64,000 nt of DNA from Escherichia coli (GTDB lineage Bacteria > Pseudomonadota > Gammaproteobacteria > Enterobacterales > Enterobacteriaceae): the NCBI RefSeq assembly GCF_003018255.1, contig NZ_CP027440.1; one strand, written 5' to 3'. The notes beneath the pieces are model-generated. The model worked only from the letters and a program-made list of their open reading frames with translations. It did not search any database and was not told the DNA's origin. The translations under genes were made by a program, and so were the position numbers. The first letter of the stretch is position 1, and each line of letters starts with the position of its first letter. This document shows, piece after piece, positions 29,904-36,060 of this stretch.

Positions 29904-31819
29904 GATGCCTTCGTATCAAACAGAGTTAACATATCGCGCGCCGCCTGCCTTCCTGCGGCCATTGCAGTGACAACCAGATCCGCGCCATGAACAGCATCAC
30001 CACCAGCAAAGACTTTTTTCAGATGCGTCTGGGTAGGTAAATACCCGACGTCACCGGTTTGAATCAGGCCCCATTTATCGAGTTTAATTCCGCTGCCCTG
30101 CAACCACGGCATGGCATGCGCCTGGAAACCAAAGGCCATAATGAGAACATCGGCGGGCAATTCAAACTCTGAACCCGCTACCGGACGAGGACGACGGCGA
30201 CCATCCGGCCCCGGCTCACCCATGGCGGTACGAATCAGGCCCACCGCAGTTAAACGCCCATCTTCGTCACAAGCGATATATTGCGGCTGAACATTGAACT
30301 GAAACTTGACACCTTCCTCGCGCGCATTGACCACCTCTTTGCGCGAGCCCGGCATACTGACTTCATCACGACGATACGCGCAGGTCACGCTGGCGGCATT
30401 GAGGCGGATGGAAGTCCGCAAACAATCCATGGTCGTATCGCCACCGCCCAATACCACGACTCGCTTACCTTCCACATCCGTCAGCGGATACTCTTCAGAC
30501 TCCGGCAACCCCATGAGCTGGCGGGTATGGGCAGTCAGGAACGGTAGAGCCTGAATGACACCGGGCGCATCTTCATGCGGCAGATCTGCTCGCATCATCC
30601 CGTAAGTCCCCACGCCGATGAAAACTGCATCATATTCAGAAGTTAAATCGCTAAAGGTAATATCGCGGCCAATTTCACAGTTAAGATGAAAGTCGATTCC
30701 CATTGCGGTGAATATCTCTCGCCGCTGGCTTAATACCGTTTTATCGAGTTTGAAAGGAGGTATGCCAAAAGTCAGCATACCGCCAATTTCTGGATGGCGA
30801 TCAAAGACATCAACCTGAACTCCTGCGCGCGCCAAAATATCAGCACACCCTAACCCTGCAGGCCCTGCGCCAATCACCGCCACTTTTTCGATACGGGGAA
30901 CAACTTTGCTGACATCGGGACGCCAGCCCATCGCCAGCGCGGTATCGGTAATGTAGCGTTCCAGATTCCCGATAGAGACTGCGCCAGAGTGATCTTTCAA
31001 AGTACATGCGCCTTCACAAAGACGGTCCTGTGGACATACCCTGCCGCAGATTTCTGGCAAGGAACTGGTCTGGTGGCAAAGTTCTGCCGCTTCAATAATC
31101 TTTCCTTCCTGCACCAGACGGATGTAATCCGGAATAGCGTTATGCAGCGGGCAATGCCAGTTGCAGTTAGCTTTTTCGGCGCAATAAACACAGCGGTCAC
31201 TCTCATAAGTCGCTTGTTGTGGATCCAGCCCGTAATAGATTTCGCCAAAGTGGGTTTTCCGTTCACTCGCTGAAATTTTATCTGCGCCTTTACGCGAGTT
31301 AACGGGGAGCAACGCTGCACTGCGAGATGGCTGAGCGTCTGATGACGCTTTTCCTGCTGCCGTTTTGCGCTGGCGGGCCACCTTTATCTGCTGCAACCCT
31401 TTATCGTCCATCAGCCGTAACGCCTGTGTTGGGCAGACTTCAATACAGGCTTGCGTGCCGGAACTGCGCTGGTTACAAAGGTCGCATTTCTGCGCAATCG
31501 TATCGACCATCTCAACGACGCCAAAGGGGCAAGCGATTGCGCATCTTTTACAACCAATACATTTTTGCTCGTCCAGTTGTACGCTATCGGGCTGGAAAGT
31601 CAGAGCATTAACCGGACAAGCCGTAACGCAAGGGGCATTGTTGCAGTGATGGCAGGCCACCGGATTCGCAGCCTGGCCTTTCCCTACAACGTGGATACGC
31701 GGTCGAAAGTCACTGTGACTCAGCGGCCAGTTTTCTTGATTATGTGCCATCGCACAGGCAATTTCACAAGCATGACAGCCTATACATTCCGCAGCTTCAG
31801 CAGCGATAAACTTATTCAT
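29900..31819 (-). CDS. ygfT: Fe-S flavoprotein oxidoreductase (N-terminal 4Fe-4S ferredoxin domain plus glutamate synthase beta-like FAD/NAD(P) domain)
   Basis: Track ORF to 31834; start trimmed to [15 protein letters not shown] (639 aa); [14 protein letters not shown] dinucleotide-binding motif. Confidence 0.8.
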
Positions 31820-32101
31820 TTGCATCCCTTTCATTTAATGAGTTATGTCTTCTCAAATTTCGCGATGCAATAAATGGGCATGTATTAGGTAGCATGGCCG
31901 ATTTAATTATAATTTTGCGACTGAGTTCAAATTATTGCCCCTCAATCTATGCAGCTTTCATTATTTCAACATTGCCGATCAAAAGAATGCTATCCAGATA
32001 AAAACGATTAAATGCGAGAGTGCGACATGCCAGAATGATTAATGAAATATCAATATGAGAAAATTACAGATAATTCCATTGTCAGGTTCTCTTCTCATTT
32101 T

Positions 32102-32116
32102 CGTGGTTTAACCACG
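32102..32116. promoter_or_regulatory. palindrome CGTGGTT-T-AACCACG in the ygfT-uacT divergent region
   Basis: 7-bp arms with 1-nt centre, read directly from the sequence; about 140 nt upstream of the uacT start. Confidence 0.3.
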
Positions 32117-32169
32117 ATTATGTGATTACCTCCGCAATTCCTGTCTCTAACTCCCCTTCCTCGCAAAAC

Positions 32170-32185
32170 TGGCACTCCACGAGCA
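32170..32185 (+). promoter_or_regulatory. weak candidate sigma-54 -24/-12 element upstream of uacT
   Basis: TGGCACtccacgaGCA: exact -24, correct GG-N10-GC spacing, -12 lacks the TT. Confidence 0.25.
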
Positions 32186-32253
32186 TGTATTTAGACAGTT
32201 TCATGAACGTAAACGGTTGCTTTTTACTCTGGCGGGCGAAAGGAGAAACACTG

Positions 32254-33702
32254 ATGAGCGCCATAGATTCCCAACTTCCCTCATCTTCTGGGCAAGACCG
32301 CCCAACTGATGAGGTTGACCGCATATTATCACCAGGAAAGCTGATCATACTCGGTCTGCAACACGTCCTTGTCATGTACGCAGGTGCAGTCGCTGTTCCT
32401 CTTATGATTGGCGACCGACTGGGCCTCTCAAAAGAAGCTATTGCGATGCTCATTAGCTCGGATCTCTTTTGCTGCGGGATCGTCACATTATTGCAATGTA
32501 TCGGTATCGGCCGCTTTATGGGGATCCGCCTGCCGGTGATTATGTCGGTGACCTTCGCCGCTGTAACACCAATGATAGCCATTGGGATGAACCCGGATAT
32601 CGGCCTGCTGGGGATATTTGGTGCCACTATCGCCGCGGGTTTTATCACCACATTATTAGCGCCACTTATCGGTCGCTTGATGCCTTTATTCCCGCCACTG
32701 GTTACCGGTGTGGTTATTACTTCTATCGGACTTAGCATCATTCAGGTGGGTATTGACTGGGCCGCAGGAGGTAAAGGGAATCCGCAATATGGTAATCCCG
32801 TTTATTTAGGTATCTCCTTTGCCGTCTTAATTTTTATCTTGCTCATTACTCGCTATGCGAAAGGATTTATGTCCAACGTCGCCGTATTACTGGGGATTGT
32901 ATTTGGCTTTTTACTTTCGTGGATGATGAATGAAGTCAATTTATCCGGGCTACATGATGCCTCGTGGTTTGCGATTGTCACCCCGATGTCGTTTGGTATG
33001 CCGATTTTTGATCCCGTTTCCATTCTGACCATGACTGCCGTGTTAATCATCGTGTTTATCGAGTCGATGGGGATGTTCCTGGCACTGGGTGAAATAGTTG
33101 GTCGTAAACTCTCTTCACACGATATTATTCGCGGGCTGCGTGTCGATGGCGTAGGGACAATGATAGGCGGAACGTTTAACAGCTTCCCCCATACGTCATT
33201 TTCACAAAACGTTGGCCTGGTTAGCGTGACGCGCGTTCATAGCCGCTGGGTGTGTATTTCTTCGGGAATTATATTAATCCTGTTTGGCATGGTGCCAAAA
33301 ATGGCGGTGCTGGTCGCCTCCATTCCGCAATTTGTGCTGGGCGGTGCTGGGCTGGTGATGTTCGGCATGGTACTGGCGACAGGGATTCGAATTCTGTCGC
33401 GCTGTAACTACACCACCAACCGTTACAACCTCTATATTGTGGCGATCAGTCTCGGCGTTGGCATGACGCCAACGCTCTCTCACGATTTCTTTTCTAAGTT
33501 ACCGGCCGTACTGCAACCGTTGCTGCATAGCGGCATTATGCTCGCAACCCTTAGCGCCGTTGTGCTGAACGTCTTCTTTAATGGCTATCAGCATCATGCT
33601 GATCTGGTGAAGGAATCCGTCTCTGATAAAGATTTAAAAGTCAGGACAGTACGTATGTGGCTTCTGATGCGCAAGCTGAAGAAAAATGAGCATGGAGAAT
33701 AA
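32254..33702 (+). CDS. uacT: uric acid (urate) transporter, NCS2/NAT family
   Basis: Track ORF 32122..33702; start trimmed to MSAIDSQLP (482 aa) preceded by AGGAGAAA. Confidence 0.85.
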   Translation: MSAIDSQLPSSSGQDRPTDEVDRILSPGKLIILGLQHVLVMYAGAVAVPLMIGDRLGLSKEAIAMLISSDLFCCGIVTLLQCIGIGRFMGIRLPVIMSVTFAAVTPMIAIGMNPDIGLLGIFGATIAAGFITTLLAPLIGRLMPLFPPLVTGVVITSIGLSIIQVGIDWAAGGKGNPQYGNPVYLGISFAVLIFILLITRYAKGFMSNVAVLLGIVFGFLLSWMMNEVNLSGLHDASWFAIVTPMSFGMPIFDPVSILTMTAVLIIVFIESMGMFLALGEIVGRKLSSHDIIRGLRVDGVGTMIGGTFNSFPHTSFSQNVGLVSVTRVHSRWVCISSGIILILFGMVPKMAVLVASIPQFVLGGAGLVMFGMVLATGIRILSRCNYTTNRYNLYIVAISLGVGMTPTLSHDFFSKLPAVLQPLLHSGIMLATLSAVVLNVFFNGYQHHADLVKESVSDKDLKVRTVRMWLLMRKLKKNEHGE

Positions 33703-33703
33703 T

Positions 33704-33829
33704 ATGAATCTTTTAATGCGCGCTATATTCAGTCTGCTGTTGATTTTTACTCTCTCTATTCCTGTCATTTCTGATTGTGTTGCAATGGCCATTGAAAGTC
33801 GCTTCAAATATATGATGCTGCTTTTTTAA
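33704..33829 (+). CDS. yqfG: small hydrophobic protein (41 aa)
   Basis: ATG 1 nt after the uacT stop; translation MNLLMRAIFSLLLIFTLSIPVISDCVAMAIESRFKYMMLLF; below the ORF-track size cutoff; identification from memory of a K-12 small protein at this position. Confidence 0.5.
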   Translation: MNLLMRAIFSLLLIFTLSIPVISDCVAMAIESRFKYMMLLF

Positions 33830-33951
33830 ATGGTTTTTACCTGTCGACATCCGCTCAAAACGGGCGGTTGTCGATAAACGCTCACTTGGTTAATCATTTC
33901 ACTCTTCTATTATCTATAATGATGAGTGATCAGAATTACATGTGAGATATT

Positions 33952-34500
33952 ATGCAAACGGAACACGTCATTTTATTGAATGCACAGGGAGTTCCCACGG
34001 GTACGCTGGAAAAGTATGCCGCACACACGGCAGACACCCTCTTACATCTCGCGTTTTCCAGTTGGCTGTTTAATGCCAAAGGGCAATTATTAGTTACCCG
34101 CCGCGCCCTTAGCAAAAAAGCGTGGCCTGGCGTGTGGACTAACTCGGTTTGTGGGCACCCACAACTGGGAGAAAGCAACGAAGACGCGGTGATCCGCCGT
34201 TGCCGTTATGAGCTTGGCGTGGAAATTACGCCTCCTGAATCTATCTATCCTGACTTCTACTATCGCGCCACCGATCCGAATGGCATTGTGGAAAATGAAG
34301 TGTGTCCGGTATTTGCCGCACGCACCACCAGTGCGTTACAGATCAACGATGATGAAGTGATGGATTATCAATGGTGTGATTTAGCAGATGTATTACACGG
34401 TATTGATGCCACGCCGTGGGCGTTCAGTCCGTGGATGGTGATGCAGGCAGCCAATAGTGAAGCAAGAAAATTGTTGTCTGCTTTCGCGCAGCACAATTAA
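33952..34500 (+). CDS. idi: isopentenyl-diphosphate delta-isomerase (type 1)
   Basis: 182 aa; Nudix-like IPP isomerase. Confidence 0.9.
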
Positions 34501-34524
34501 AAAACCCCGACATTTGCCGGGGTT
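34495..34524 (-). terminator. intrinsic terminator of lysS (hairpin shared with the idi 3' end)
   Basis: AACCCCG-acatttgc-CGGGGTT hairpin; minus strand reads hairpin then TTTTTAAT. Confidence 0.6.
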
Positions 34525-34542
34525 GTGAGCATAACGTAATGC

Positions 34543-36060
34543 TTATTTCACCGGACGCATCGCCGGGAACAGAATAACGTCGCGGATGGTATGACTGTTG
34601 GTGAACAGCATTACCATACGGTCGATACCAATTCCCAGACCTGCTGTCGGCGGTAAGCCGTGTTCCAGTGCGGTGACGTAATCTTCGTCGTAGAACATCG
34701 CTTCGTCGTCACCTGCATCTTTCGCGGCAACCTGATCCAGGAAGCGCTGCGCCTGATCTTCCGCGTCATTCAGCTCGCTAAAGCCGTTACCGATTTCACG
34801 CCCACCAATGAAGAACTCAAAGCGGTCTGTGATTTCCGGGTTAACGTCGTTACGACGCGCCAGAGGAGAAACTTCTGCCGGATATTCAGTAATGAAGGTC
34901 GGCTGGATCAGATGTGCTTCTGCCACTTCTTCGAAGATCTCGGTAACGATACGGCCCAGACCCCAGCTCTTCTCAACGTGGATGCCGATAGATTCAGCAA
35001 TCGCTTTCGCAGAGTCGAAGTTGTCCAGATCCGCCATGTCGGTTTCCGGGCGATATTTCTTGATCGCTTCACGCATGGTCAGTTTTTCGAACGGTTTACC
35101 GAAGTCCAGCGTTACGTCGCCGTAGGTCACTTCCGTCTTACCGAGAATATCCTGTGCCAGAGTACGGAACAGCGATTCGGTCAGCTCGATCAGATCTTTG
35201 TAATCTGCGTAAGCCATATAGAGTTCCATCATGGTGAACTCTGGGTTATGACGTACGGAAATACCTTCGTTACGGAAGTTACGGTTGATTTCGAATACAC
35301 GCTCGAAGCCACCGACCACCAGACGCTTGAGGTACAGTTCCGGCGCGATACGCAGGTACATGTCGAGATCCAGCGCATTATGGTGGGTGATGAACGGACG
35401 CGCAGCGGCACCGCCAGGGATCACCTGCATCATCGGCGTTTCAACTTCCATAAAGCCGCGGTTCACCATGAACTGGCGAATACCAGAGAGGATCTGCGAG
35501 CGCACTTTAAAGGTGTTGCGGGATTCATCGTTAGAGATGAGATCCAGATAACGCTGACGATAGCGCGCTTCCTGATCCTGCAAGCCGTGGAATTTATCCG
35601 GCAGCGGACGCAGTGCTTTGGTCAGCAGACGCAGCTCGGTACAGTGGATAGACAGTTCGCCGGTTTTGGTTTTGAACAGTTTACCTTTCGCGCCGAGGAT
35701 ATCGCCGAGGTCCCATTTTTTGAACTGCTCGTTGTAAACGCCTTCCGGCAGATCGTCACGGGCAACGTACAGCTGAATGCGGCCCCCCACGTCCTGCAGG
35801 GTAACGAAAGACGCTTTACCCATAATACGACGGGTCATCATGCGGCCGGCAACGGCGACTTCGATGTTCAGCGCTTCCAGTTCTTCGTTCTCTTTACCGT
35901 CGAATTCTGCGTGCAATTGGTCAGAGGTATGATCGCGACGGAAATCGTTCGGGAAGGCAATCCCCTGCTCGCGCAGGTTCGCCAGCTTCTCACGACGCGT
36001 TTTCAGTTCATTGTTAAGATCGACTACCGCGTCAGCGCCCTGTGCGTGTTGTTCAGACAT
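34543..36060 (-). CDS. lysS: lysyl-tRNA synthetase (class II)
   Basis: 505 aa; class II aaRS. Confidence 0.95.

What the first reader, a model, noticed from the sequence alone, without database searches (positions are those of the whole stretch)
33704..33829. Unlisted 41-codon hydrophobic ORF abutting the uacT stop
An ATG begins 1 nt after the uacT TAA and encodes a 41-aa peptide with one hydrophobic helix-like segment (MNLLMRAIFSLLLIFTLSIPVISD...). Translational coupling to a transporter gene suggests a small membrane accessory or regulatory peptide. It falls below the ORF-track cutoff.
Basis: partly seen in the sequence, partly recalled or inferred. Interest (0 to 1): 0.4.

Follow-up and report, generated by a model that had tools for sequence, protein, structure and literature searches.

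The report
Known small membrane gene yqfG
The 41-codon ORF right after the urate transporter gene uacT is the already described E. coli small membrane protein gene yqfG, so it is not a new gene, although its relatives always sit directly behind a uacT-type transporter gene and its function remains unknown.

Summary
An ATG at 33704 starts 1 nt after the uacT TAA and opens a 41-codon frame ending at 33829, with a GGAG 6 nt upstream. The ORF is not new. RefSeq annotates it as yqfG ("protein YqfG") at this position, and matching DNA is present in 5384 of 5426 complete E. coli genomes. The peptide is 39/41 identical to K-12 YqfG. Published work shows that tagged YqfG is integral to the membrane and is cleaved by the intramembrane protease RseP in vivo and in vitro. 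An ORF of this length alone is not beyond chance (P≈0.09). Conservation makes the case instead: the frame has no stops in any of the 10 aligned 41-codon orthologs, variable sites fall 24/10/35 by codon position, and pN/pS is 0.08–0.16 within Escherichia. I also found a small family of 38–45-aa relatives in Citrobacter, Kluyvera, Klebsiella, Enterobacter (by name only, context not examined) and Apirhabdus/Erwinia. In all 10 lineages whose context I examined, the gene directly follows an NCS2 permease gene, and in 9 of them the gap is −1 to +4 nt. The downstream genes vary. Residues 25 and 29 are small in all 23 members. This supports, but does not prove, a role as a permease partner. Verdict: already known gene, low interest, with a testable accessory-subunit hypothesis.

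The parts
33704..33829 (+). yqfG CDS: 41 codons plus TAA, encoding a small single-helix membrane protein. The allele is WP_001298502.1, which differs from K-12 YqfG at F3L and L14I.
   Evidence: Sequence and translation. RefSeq annotation in the 100%-identical record NZ_CP116067.1 and in K-12 DH5alpha. The K-12 sequence is listed as a 'Previously known sORF'. Purifying selection.
33694..33697 (+). Shine-Dalgarno-like GGAG, 6 nt upstream of the yqfG ATG, inside the last uacT codons (GGA GAA).
   Evidence: Read from the sequence. Purine-rich SD-like elements sit at the same place in the other lineages: GGTG, AGGA, GAGGA, AGGAGG, GGGAG. No significant occluding mRNA structure (z=0.08).
32254..33702 (+). 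uacT (ygfU), urate/H+ symporter of the NCS2 family, 482 aa. It is the upstream cistron, and its stop lies 1 nt before the yqfG start.
   Evidence: RefSeq annotation mapped from L001. Xan_ur_permease Pfam hits on the orthologous genes.
33842..33876 (+). Stable stem-loop 13 nt after the yqfG stop. It probably marks the 3' end of the uacT-yqfG transcript (stabiliser or terminator). There is no U-tract.
   Evidence: dG is -24.1 kcal/mol, z is -5.4, and 0 of 200 shuffles fold as well. Hairpins of equal strength but different sequence occupy the same position in K-12, E. albertii, Citrobacter sp. R56 and C. amalonaticus.
33868..33897 (+). Sigma-70 promoter of idi (TTGTCG-18-AATCAT), which shows that idi is transcribed separately from uacT-yqfG.
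   Evidence: Genomic SELEX table, row yqfG > idi (PMC3946193). The hexamers were located in the window sequence.
33826..33897 (-). yqfH, a convergent 23-aa ORF (MINQVSVYRQPPVLSGCRQVKTI) that overlaps the yqfG stop by 4 nt and covers the hairpin. It is a neighbour and not part of the yqfG function proposed here.
   Evidence: RefSeq annotation. Discovered by tagging (PMC6001520). The frame is not conserved outside the E. coli lineage.

Best explanation
The ORF is yqfG, a known E. coli gene for a 41-residue single-helix inner-membrane protein. It is the second cistron of a uacT-yqfG unit. Ribosomes finishing uacT at UAA (33700-33702) meet an AUG 1 nt later with a GGAG 6 nt upstream, so YqfG is probably made by termination-reinitiation or tightly coupled initiation, in step with the permease. 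The transcript appears to end at a conserved stem-loop (33842-33876), and idi has its own promoter. The peptide is predicted to insert with its N-terminus (Arg6) in the cytoplasm and its conserved C-terminal ESRFxY/F motif on the periplasmic side. It is removed by the site-2 protease RseP. Its most likely role is as a small partner subunit or regulator of the UacT-type urate permease, packing against it through the conserved Pro20 and the small-xxx-small pair at residues 25 and 29. I put this role at about 0.35-0.4. What is shown: the gene's identity, selection on the peptide, membrane integration and RseP cleavage of tagged K-12 YqfG (from the literature), and the strict permease linkage. What is inferred: the coupling mechanism, the topology, and the interaction with UacT.
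For: Identity. RefSeq names the ORF yqfG in every one of the 24 listed rows that cover it. DNA matching the region occurs in 5384 of 5426 complete E. coli genomes. It has the same coordinates relative to uacT and idi in L001 and L002. It is 95% identical to the K-12 sequence, which a Ribo-seq supplement lists under 'Previously known sORFs'. Coding. The frame has no stops in any of the 10 aligned 41-codon orthologs, variable columns fall 24/10/35 by codon position, and pN/pS is 0.08-0.16 within Escherichia (shuffle fractions 0.0005 and 0 of 2000) and 0.44-0.57 against Citrobacter (p about 0.02). This is the lowest of the six frames in all five Citrobacter-level comparisons. Within Escherichia one antisense frame is equally low (0.08 vs E. 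albertii) or close (0.24 vs 0.16). In-frame indel alleles keep the frame. Membrane protein and RseP substrate. HA-MBP-YqfG is integral to the membrane and is cleaved by wild-type RseP but not by the E23Q mutant (PMC4597795). It was cleaved in all four assays, including by chromosomally encoded RseP and by purified RseP (PMC10470546, Table 1). The AF2 model is a single helix. Link to the permease. A profile search of 1.84 billion proteins finds only 31 representatives. In all 10 lineages whose context I examined (Escherichia, the C. amalonaticus group, Kluyvera, K. michiganensis-type, K. aerogenes-type, Apirhabdus/Erwinia-type and 4 unnamed contigs or assemblies) the gene directly follows a Xan_ur_permease gene. 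The gaps are -1, +1, +3 or +4 nt, except in Kluyvera where the gap is 66 nt. The downstream gene varies: idi, AraC-like regulators, FdhF-like oxidoreductase, XdhC/YqeC, MocA-like, a phosphatase. The partner permeases include a lineage only about 42% identical to E. coli UacT. Arg6 (aligned in 22 of 23 and offset in one), Pro20, small residues at 25 and 29, and [S/G]RF are conserved in 23 of 23 members. Operon limits are set by the conserved hairpin and the idi promoter.
Against: No experiment accessible to me shows a YqfG-UacT interaction or a yqfG phenotype, and both RseP papers call its function unknown. Close UacT orthologs in C. freundii, Pluralibacter and Serratia oryzae lack the peptide gene, so the permease does not generally need it. 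Kluyvera has a 66-nt spacer and its own SD, so stop-start coupling is not universal. All RseP data use N-terminally tagged constructs of the K-12 allele, and the authors themselves warn that tags can alter topology. The Ribo-seq signal looks low, because the adjusted p-value is blank. I could not read the original discovery paper (Hemm 2008) here. E. coli isolates carry stop-loss, frameshifted and indel alleles, so constraint is not absolute.
Confidence: 0.85

Rival explanations
1. YqfG is a genuine small membrane protein whose target is not UacT. It might modulate another membrane complex, or be a marginally functional peptide that RseP simply clears. On this view its position behind the permease reflects operon hitch-hiking.
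For: Several close UacT orthologs lack it. No functional link has been published. Stop-loss, frameshift and indel alleles circulate in E. coli. RseP cleaves many unrelated small membrane proteins.
Against: Linkage to an NCS2 permease holds in all 10 lineages examined, despite different downstream genes and permeases only about 42% identical. No family member was found away from a permease in any fetched locus or elsewhere in the window. The peptide is under purifying selection.
Confidence: 0.3
2. YqfG is a signal-peptide-like pre-peptide. Residues 1 to about 23-29 would act as a Sec signal sequence, leader peptidase would cut after a small-x-small site, a 12-18-residue C-terminal peptide (…IESRFKYMMLLF) would be released to the periplasmic face, and RseP would then clear the remnant signal peptide.
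For: The layout is n-h-c-like: Arg6, a 13-16-residue hydrophobic core, Pro20, and small residues at 25 and 29 (AMA in E. coli, ALG in Citrobacter). RseP's known housekeeping substrates are remnant signal peptides, and YqfG was tested because it resembles them. The most conserved motif, [S/G]RF, lies in the would-be mature part.
Against: The -3/-1 rule is met in only 12 of 23 members at site A and 18 of 23 at site B, with Q, R, D, E or N at -3 in many. The two always-small positions are spaced i, i+4, which fits a helix-packing motif equally well. HA-MBP-YqfG accumulated at the expected full-length size and was converted to a smaller form only when active RseP was present. AF2 models one continuous helix.
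Confidence: 0.08
3. Only the act of translating the ORF matters. Ribosomes reading through from uacT to the stem-loop could protect the mRNA 3' end or prevent premature Rho termination, and the peptide would be a by-product.
For: The ORF abuts uacT and ends 13 nt before a conserved strong hairpin. It is AT-rich (GC 0.35, against 0.49 for uacT and 0.50 for idi). Footprint counts appear low.
Against: The amino-acid sequence is constrained: pN/pS is 0.08-0.16 within Escherichia, Arg6/Pro20/SRF are conserved, and positions 25 and 29 stay small across lineages with completely diverged DNA. In Klebsiella-type loci the next gene starts 12-18 nt after the peptide stop, with no room for a comparable hairpin.
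Confidence: 0.06
4. YqfG is a type I toxin-like hydrophobic peptide controlled by an antisense transcript from the convergent yqfH side.
For: Its size and hydrophobicity resemble Hok/Ibs/Ldr-type toxins. RseP also cleaves Hok toxins. A convergent transcribed ORF overlaps its 3' end.
Against: The RseP papers report growth inhibition for Hok constructs but not for over-expressed YqfG. The yqfH region is not conserved where yqfG is. No toxin-antitoxin RNA family matches the region. Stable linkage to a metabolic permease is not typical of type I loci.
Confidence: 0.02
5. It is a chance ORF in AT-rich spacer DNA.
For: ORFs of this length are common by chance: P=0.093, and the window holds 252 ATG-ORFs of at least 41 aa.
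Against: Cross-genus conservation of the frame, a coding-type substitution pattern, and the published protein work.
Confidence: 0.01

Closest known systems
YqfG of Escherichia coli K-12 (NC_000913.3:3032817-3032942, + strand; small membrane protein attributed to Hemm et al. 2008)
   Same: Same locus (uacT | yqfG | yqfH | idi), same length, same 1-nt stop-start spacing, and 39/41 identical residues.
   Different: This window carries the allele with Leu3 and Ile14 (WP_001298502.1) instead of Phe3 and Leu14. Residue 14 lies inside the Ile8-Phe15 stretch that was Pro-scanned for RseP cleavage. The RseP susceptibility of this allele has not been tested.
RseP (S2P) substrates: remnant signal peptides and class I small membrane proteins (YkgR, HokB, HokE, Blr, YshB)
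   Same: A short single-span hydrophobic peptide with a very small periplasmic tail. The K-12 protein was cleaved in all four assay formats.
   Different: There is no sequence relationship to the other substrates. The physiological meaning of the cleavage is unknown, and all the data come from N-terminally tagged constructs.
Small single-pass partners of transporters and membrane enzymes encoded beside their partner (KdpF in kdpFABC, CydX in cydABX; also AcrZ-AcrB and MgtS-MgtA). This comparison rests on my general knowledge of these systems.
   Same: A hydrophobic helix of 30-50 residues. For KdpF and CydX the gene sits in the same operon as the partner. YqfG-family genes are always fused to the 3' end of an NCS2 permease gene.
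   Different: There is no homology (no Pfam or NCBIfam hit) and no interaction or phenotype data for YqfG. I am not aware of any small subunit described for an NCS2 permease.
Unnamed 38-42-aa 'hypothetical proteins' of Klebsiella michiganensis/oxytoca/pasteurii, K. aerogenes, Enterobacter, Citrobacter amalonaticus/enshiensis, Kluyvera and Apirhabdus
   Same: They are detected by a YqfG profile at E values from 1e-16 to 8e-4 in a 1.84-billion-protein library. They share R…P-[AV]-[VI]…small-xxx-small…[S/G]RF-x-aromatic, and they occupy the same position after a permease.
   Different: They are only 26-56% identical to E. coli YqfG. Some partner permeases are only about 42% identical to UacT. None is named or studied.

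Membership tests
YqfG (E. coli K-12 small protein gene yqfG) | Near-identical 41-aa sequence | tested here: met
   39/41 identical to the K-12 DH5alpha/MG1655 sequence. 100% identical to WP_001298502.1, which RefSeq names 'protein YqfG'.
YqfG (E. coli K-12 small protein gene yqfG) | Position between uacT and idi, same strand as uacT, start 1 nt after the uacT stop | tested here: met
   Annotation tables of L001 and L002 and the window sequence.
Translated, selected protein-coding gene | Reading frame kept open, with synonymous changes exceeding non-synonymous changes across species | tested here: met
   No stops in any of the 10 aligned 41-codon orthologs. Codon-position variability is 24/10/35. 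pN/pS is 0.08-0.57, the lowest of the six frames at Citrobacter distance; within Escherichia one antisense frame is equally low or close. Shuffle test gives fractions of 0.0005 and 0 of 2000 within Escherichia.
Translated, selected protein-coding gene | Direct detection of the protein or of ribosome occupancy | not testable with these tools
   Literature only. It is listed as a previously known sORF with Ribo-seq fold-change values but a blank adjusted p-value. The primary tagging paper (Hemm 2008) is not held in the library.
Single-span small membrane protein | One hydrophobic segment long enough to span the bilayer | tested here: met
   The best 19-mer (residues 4-22) has mean Kyte-Doolittle 2.22. 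AF2 gives a helix over residues 3-40 with pLDDT 83. Membrane integration of HA-MBP-YqfG is reported in PMC4597795.
RseP / S2P substrate | Type II (N-in, C-out) orientation with a short periplasmic tail | tested here: inconclusive
   Arg6 is the only charge before the hydrophobic core. The tail carries D24, E31, R33 and K35, net 0. The literature gives only a TMHMM prediction for YqfG, and the tail is described as about 12 aa.
RseP / S2P substrate | RseP-dependent cleavage | not testable with these tools
   Shown for tagged K-12 YqfG in vivo (plasmid-borne and chromosomal RseP) and in vitro. Not tested for this allele (F3L, L14I) or for the untagged protein.
Sec signal peptide cleaved by leader peptidase | Conserved -3/-1 small-residue cleavage site after the hydrophobic core | tested here: inconclusive
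   E. coli has candidate sites (SDC, AMA). Across 23 family members the rule holds in only 12/23 at site A and 18/23 at site B.
Bacterial lipoprotein | Lipobox L-[AS]-[GA]-C with an invariant Cys | tested here: not met
   The sequence is I-S-D-C, with Asp at -1. Cys25 is replaced by G, S or A in every member outside Escherichia.
Operon-encoded small subunit of a transporter (KdpF/CydX-like arrangement) | Gene strictly linked to the partner's gene across taxa | tested here: met
   In 10 of 10 lineages it lies directly after a Xan_ur_permease gene, while the downstream genes vary.
Operon-encoded small subunit of a transporter (KdpF/CydX-like arrangement) | Physical association with the partner, or an effect on it | not testable with these tools
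   No published data were found. The structure tool returns no interface metrics, so I did not attempt a co-fold.
Type I toxin-antitoxin | Toxic peptide plus a conserved antisense RNA | not tested
   No Rfam match. The convergent yqfH region is not conserved. No toxicity is reported for over-expressed YqfG in the papers I read.

The most novel reading that the evidence does not exclude
The YqfG family would be a dedicated single-helix accessory subunit or regulator of UacT-type (NCS2) urate permeases. It would be made in step with the permease through stop-start coupling, would dock through the conserved Pro20 and the small-xxx-small pair (residues 25 and 29) with the [S/G]RF motif at the periplasmic face, and would be tuned by RseP proteolysis. 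To my knowledge this would be the first small-protein partner described for the nucleobase-ascorbate transporter family.
Probability: 0.35. Interest if true: 0.5.

Novelty: already known. Interest (0 to 1): 0.2.

Why it matters
As submitted, the finding rediscovers an annotated gene, so it adds nothing new about the genome. What may be worth keeping is the comparative result. YqfG belongs to a small Enterobacteriaceae family, otherwise labelled 'hypothetical', that is always encoded directly behind a UacT-type permease gene, including one permease lineage only about 42% identical to E. coli UacT. It carries a conserved helix-packing motif. This gives a function-unknown small protein, already used as a model RseP substrate, a concrete and testable partner. 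If the partnership is real, it would connect RseP proteolysis to purine and urate uptake.

Tried and rejected
1. Pfam and NCBIfam scans of the E. coli, Citrobacter and Kluyvera peptides and of YqfH gave no family. The only hits were sub-threshold chance matches (psbA, DUF1514, DUF5337).
2. A PDB profile search gave only hydrophobic chance matches at E>0.2.
3. An Rfam scan of 31800-34600 at E≤1 gave three sub-threshold hits, none credible.
4. A search for an mRNA structure hiding the yqfG SD and AUG found none in E. coli (z=0.08) or C. amalonaticus, and only a weak one in Citrobacter sp. R56 (z=-1.5).
5. The consensus promoter/terminator scan did not flag the post-yqfG hairpin, which has no U-tract, or a plus-strand promoter.
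6. The antisense 45-aa ORF (33713..33850) was considered as the real gene and rejected. Its first codon position would be the most variable, and its pN/pS is about 0.9-1.15 in four of the five Citrobacter-level comparisons and 0.55 in the fifth (L089), where the sense frame is still lower at 0.44.
7. A lipoprotein reading of Cys25 was rejected.
8. Hemm 2008, Fontaine 2011 and the EcoSal 2020 review could not be read because they are not held.
9. One literature search was swamped by unrelated 'UACT' acronyms.
10. A fused UacT-linker-YqfG AlphaFold run was considered and not run, because the tool returns only pLDDT and secondary structure, which cannot show an interface.

Full report
**1. Observation**

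Window 33704..33829 (+) reads ATG…TAA and translates to MNLLMRAIFSLLLIFTLSIPVISDCVAMAIESRFKYMMLLF, 41 residues. The uacT stop codon TAA occupies 33700-33702, so the ATG begins exactly 1 nt after it. A GGAG lies at 33694-33697, 6 nt upstream, formed by the last Gly and Glu codons of uacT. The ORF listing reports the frame as 47 aa from an upstream in-frame ATG at 33686, and another ATG sits at 33692. Those upstream ATGs are not conserved in other genera. The ATG next to the permease stop is conserved.

The peptide is strongly hydrophobic. GRAVY is 1.46 and the best 19-mer, residues 4-22, has a mean Kyte-Doolittle value of 2.22. AlphaFold2, run with a 19-sequence family alignment, gives one continuous helix over residues 3-40 with mean pLDDT 83.

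On length alone the ORF is not remarkable. Shuffles of the local sequence leave 40 further sense codons open 9.3% of the time, and the window contains 252 ATG-ORFs of at least 41 aa in six frames. Whether the ORF is real therefore has to come from other evidence.

**2. Identity**

A megablast of window 33560-33960 against all complete RefSeq E. coli genomes matches 5384 of 5426 genomes. Under the match RefSeq lists 'uacT | yqfG: protein YqfG | protein YqfH | idi' in every row that covers the ORF. In the 100%-identical record NZ_CP116067.1, yqfG (WP_001298502.1) maps to window 33704-33829, uacT to 32254-33702, yqfH to 33826-33897 on the minus strand, and idi to 33952-34500. K-12 DH5alpha has the same layout. 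A Ribo-seq supplement lists K-12 yqfG at NC_000913.3:3032817-3032942(+), sequence MNFLMRAIFSLLLLFTLSIPVISDCVAMAIESRFKYMMLLF, under 'Previously known sORFs' (PMC10746267). The window allele differs from it only at F3L and L14I.

The finding is therefore a rediscovery of a named gene.

**3. What is published**

- PMC4597795 attributes the small membrane proteins to Hemm et al. 2008 and calls YqfG a small membrane protein of unknown function, predicted to be type II (N-in, C-out).
- That paper shows HA-MBP-YqfG is integrally membrane-associated. Wild-type RseP converts it to a smaller form, but the E23Q or Δloop mutants do not.
- Pro substitutions within Ile8-Phe15 change cleavage by RseP loop mutants in an allele-specific way.
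- PMC10470546 classes YqfG as a 'Class I' substrate. It was cleaved with plasmid-borne RseP, with chromosomal RseP, as a 3xFLAG fusion, and in vitro by purified RseP.
- A bioRxiv paper notes that its periplasmic tail is about 12 aa, which explains why it can reach RseP without a prior site-1 cut.
- The authors caution that tags may alter topology and that physiological relevance is unproven.
- I could not read Hemm 2008, Fontaine 2011 or the EcoSal review because they are not held. The original expression evidence is therefore cited second-hand.
- In the acid-stress Ribo-seq table, yqfG has footprint fold-changes but a blank adjusted p-value. This suggests low counts, and it shows no acid response.

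**4.

A single-sequence search found homologs only in Escherichia, including cryptic clades. Some carry in-frame indels within the hydrophobic core that preserve the frame: 43, 45 and 38 aa.

Fetching uacT loci from one genome per species showed three things:
- E. albertii has the same ORF.
- Citrobacter sp. R56 has a 51%-identical 41-aa ORF that also starts 1 nt after the uacT stop.
- Kluyvera has a 38-aa relative 66 nt downstream.

C. freundii, Pluralibacter and Serratia oryzae have nothing there.

Across 10 orthologs of 41 codons:
- The frame has no stops, while four of the five other frames do. The exception is one antisense frame, which is almost stop-free.
- Variable alignment columns fall 24/10/35 at codon positions 1/2/3.
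- pN/pS is 0.08 against E. albertii and 0.16 against cryptic Escherichia. In 2000 random placements of the same number of changes, the fraction reaching these values was 0.0005 and 0 respectively.
- pN/pS is 0.44-0.57 against the Citrobacter group (p about 0.02).
- The sense frame is lowest in all five Citrobacter-level comparisons. Within Escherichia the almost stop-free antisense frame is equally low (0.08 vs E. albertii) or close (0.24 vs 0.16), but it drifts to about 1 in four of the five Citrobacter-level comparisons and to 0.55 in the fifth, L089.

The peptide sequence is under purifying selection.

**5. A wider family, always behind an NCS2 permease**

A profile of 19 members searched against 1.84 billion representative proteins returned only 31 hits at E≤1e-3. 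Among them were new, more divergent peptides of 38-45 aa. Source names place them in Klebsiella michiganensis/oxytoca/pasteurii (seen on more than 1000 contigs), K. aerogenes (one record from Salmonella enterica subsp. diarizonae), the Enterobacter cloacae complex, and Apirhabdus apintestini / Erwinia sp. HR93. All are labelled hypothetical. There is no Pfam or NCBIfam model.

I examined the genomic context in 10 lineages. In every one the peptide gene directly follows a Xan_ur_permease gene of 482-490 aa. The gaps are:

| Gap (nt) | Lineages |
|---|---|
| −1 (TAATG or TGATG overlap) | K. michiganensis-type, one metagenomic contig |
| +1 | Escherichia, Citrobacter group, L089, Apirhabdus-type |
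| +3 | K. aerogenes-type, L097 |
| +4 | L094 |
| +66 | Kluyvera |

A purine-rich SD-like element precedes each start. The downstream gene differs between lineages: idi, AraC-type regulators, an FdhF-like molybdopterin oxidoreductase, XdhC/YqeC, a MocA-like gene, or a phosphatase.

The partner permease in the Klebsiella-type loci is only about 42% identical to E. coli UacT. Its best match in this window is still uacT, and xanQ reaches only about 25%. An HMM scan of every stop-to-stop segment of at least 25 codons in all fetched loci and in the window found no member anywhere else. It also found none after about 70 other UacT relatives, including Morganella, Hafnia, Edwardsiella, Aeromonas and Burkholderiales.

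Conserved features across 23 distinct sequences:
- Arg near the N-terminus
- Pro20
- small residues at both position 25 (C/G/S/A) and position 29 (A/G/S), a small-xxx-small spacing
- [S/G]32-Arg33-Phe34
- an aromatic residue at position 36

Cys25 is specific to Escherichia, and I-S-D-C is not a lipobox.

**6. Operon architecture**

A stem-loop at 33842-33876 (ΔG −24.1 kcal/mol, z −5.4) follows yqfG. K-12, E. albertii, Citrobacter sp. R56 and C. amalonaticus each have an equally strong hairpin at the same place with a different sequence, so the structure is what is conserved. It has no U-tract, so I read it as a 3'-end stabiliser or a factor-dependent terminator.

Genomic SELEX places a constitutive σ70 promoter for idi (TTGTCG-18-AATCAT) between yqfG and idi (PMC3946193). 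In this window that corresponds to 33868-33897. uacT-yqfG is therefore a unit separate from idi. No significant structure occludes the yqfG start in E. coli, and no Rfam family matches the region.

**7. Mechanism**

The best-supported picture has five steps:
1. yqfG is translated from the uacT mRNA by ribosomes that have just terminated at the uacT stop. This is inferred from the conserved −1 to +4 nt junction and the SD.
2. The peptide inserts as a single helix with Arg6 on the cytoplasmic side. This is a prediction. Membrane integration is shown only for a tagged form.
3. Residues 20-34 present a proline kink, a small-xxx-small face and the SRF motif near the periplasmic surface.
4. RseP degrades the peptide. 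This is shown for tagged K-12 YqfG.
5. Its function is to act on the co-encoded permease. This is inferred from strict linkage, and I put it at 0.35-0.4.

Evidence against a partner role: several close UacT orthologs lack the gene, E. coli isolates carry stop-loss and frameshift alleles, and no interaction or phenotype has been reported.

Rivals:
- A membrane peptide with a target unrelated to UacT (0.3).
- A cleaved signal-peptide-like pre-peptide (0.08). This is weakened because the −3/−1 rule holds in only 12/23 and 18/23 members, and because the tagged full-length form was stable without RseP.
- Translation-only cis function (0.06). This is contradicted by selection on the residues.
- A type I toxin (0.02).
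- A chance ORF (0.01).

**8. Comparison with known systems, and novelty**

The ORF is a member of YqfG by sequence and by position. Functionally it resembles operon-encoded single-helix partners such as KdpF and CydX, but it shares no homology with them. That comparison rests on my general knowledge of those systems. The gene itself is already known.

As far as I can see in the searchable library, what has not been described is that YqfG belongs to a permease-linked family spanning two deep NCS2 lineages and carries a conserved packing motif. That is a hypothesis-generating extension and not a discovery of a new kind of element.

**Verdict**

- Observation: confirmed.
- Interpretation: partly supported.
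- Novelty: already known.
- Interest: 0.2.

Noticed in passing
window 33826..33897 (-): yqfH is a 23-aa ORF validated by tagging in K-12 and reported by PRM mass spectrometry. It lies on top of the conserved hairpin and overlaps the yqfG stop by 4 nt. Its frame is not conserved: the residues across the hairpin differ in E. albertii, it is frameshifted in E. coli SCPM (L081), it has a premature stop in cryptic Escherichia, and it is absent in Citrobacter. It looks like a young, lineage-specific ORF riding on an RNA structure.
   Followed up: partly
window 33842..33876 (+): A strong stem-loop (dG -24.1 kcal/mol, z -5.4) sits 13 nt after the yqfG stop with no U-tract. Hairpins of similar strength but different sequence occupy the same position in K-12, E. 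albertii, Citrobacter sp. R56 and C. amalonaticus, so the structure is maintained through compensatory change.
   Followed up: partly
window 33713..33850 (-): A 45-aa antisense ORF is open in 9 of 10 orthologs. Its pN/pS is about 0.9-1.15 in four of the five Citrobacter-level comparisons and 0.55 in the fifth, and its first codon position would be the most variable. It is a mirror image of the hydrophobic sense frame, not a gene.
   Followed up: yes
window 33704..33829: yqfG is markedly AT-rich: GC is 0.35, against 0.49 for uacT and 0.50 for idi. The U-rich codons of a hydrophobic peptide explain part of this, and it is also compatible with an origin from spacer DNA.
   Followed up: no
proteins P0002, P0015, P0018, P0024, P0038, P0066, P0076 (E. 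coli isolates): Natural yqfG alleles include in-frame insertions and deletions inside the hydrophobic core (43, 45 and 38 aa), stop-loss extensions (57-66 aa) and frameshifted forms. Constraint within E. coli is therefore not absolute.
   Followed up: no
L004 (Citrobacter freundii): In this genome uacT is followed by a terminator and then directly by the 3' end of lysS. Both yqfG and idi are missing, so the uacT-lysS interval is a variable spot in Enterobacteriaceae.
   Followed up: no
L006 4450..4515 and L090 (Kluyvera): Kluyvera is the only lineage with a long (66-nt) spacer between the permease and the peptide gene. The spacer holds a strong hairpin (GGCGCUGGGA...UCCCAGCGCC, z -2.5 for the region), and the peptide gene has its own SD.
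   Followed up: no
L092, L094, L099, L102 (Klebsiella-type and Apirhabdus-type loci): In these loci the permease-peptide pair sits in a purine/urate catabolic neighbourhood: YgfT-like Fe-S flavoprotein, FdhF-like molybdopterin oxidoreductase, xanthine-dehydrogenase-type genes, and MocA, XdhC and YqeC maturation genes. In the Klebsiella-type loci the FdhF-like gene starts only 12-18 nt after the peptide stop.
   Followed up: partly
window 32122..33702 (+): The longest uacT ORF starts at GTG 32122 (526 aa), but RefSeq and all orthologs use the ATG at 32254 (482 aa).
   Followed up: partly
protein P0041: A record named 'protein YqfG, partial [Vibrio parahaemolyticus]' sits on a 216-nt contig and is 93% identical to the E. 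coli sequence. This is most likely E. coli contamination of that assembly.
   Followed up: no
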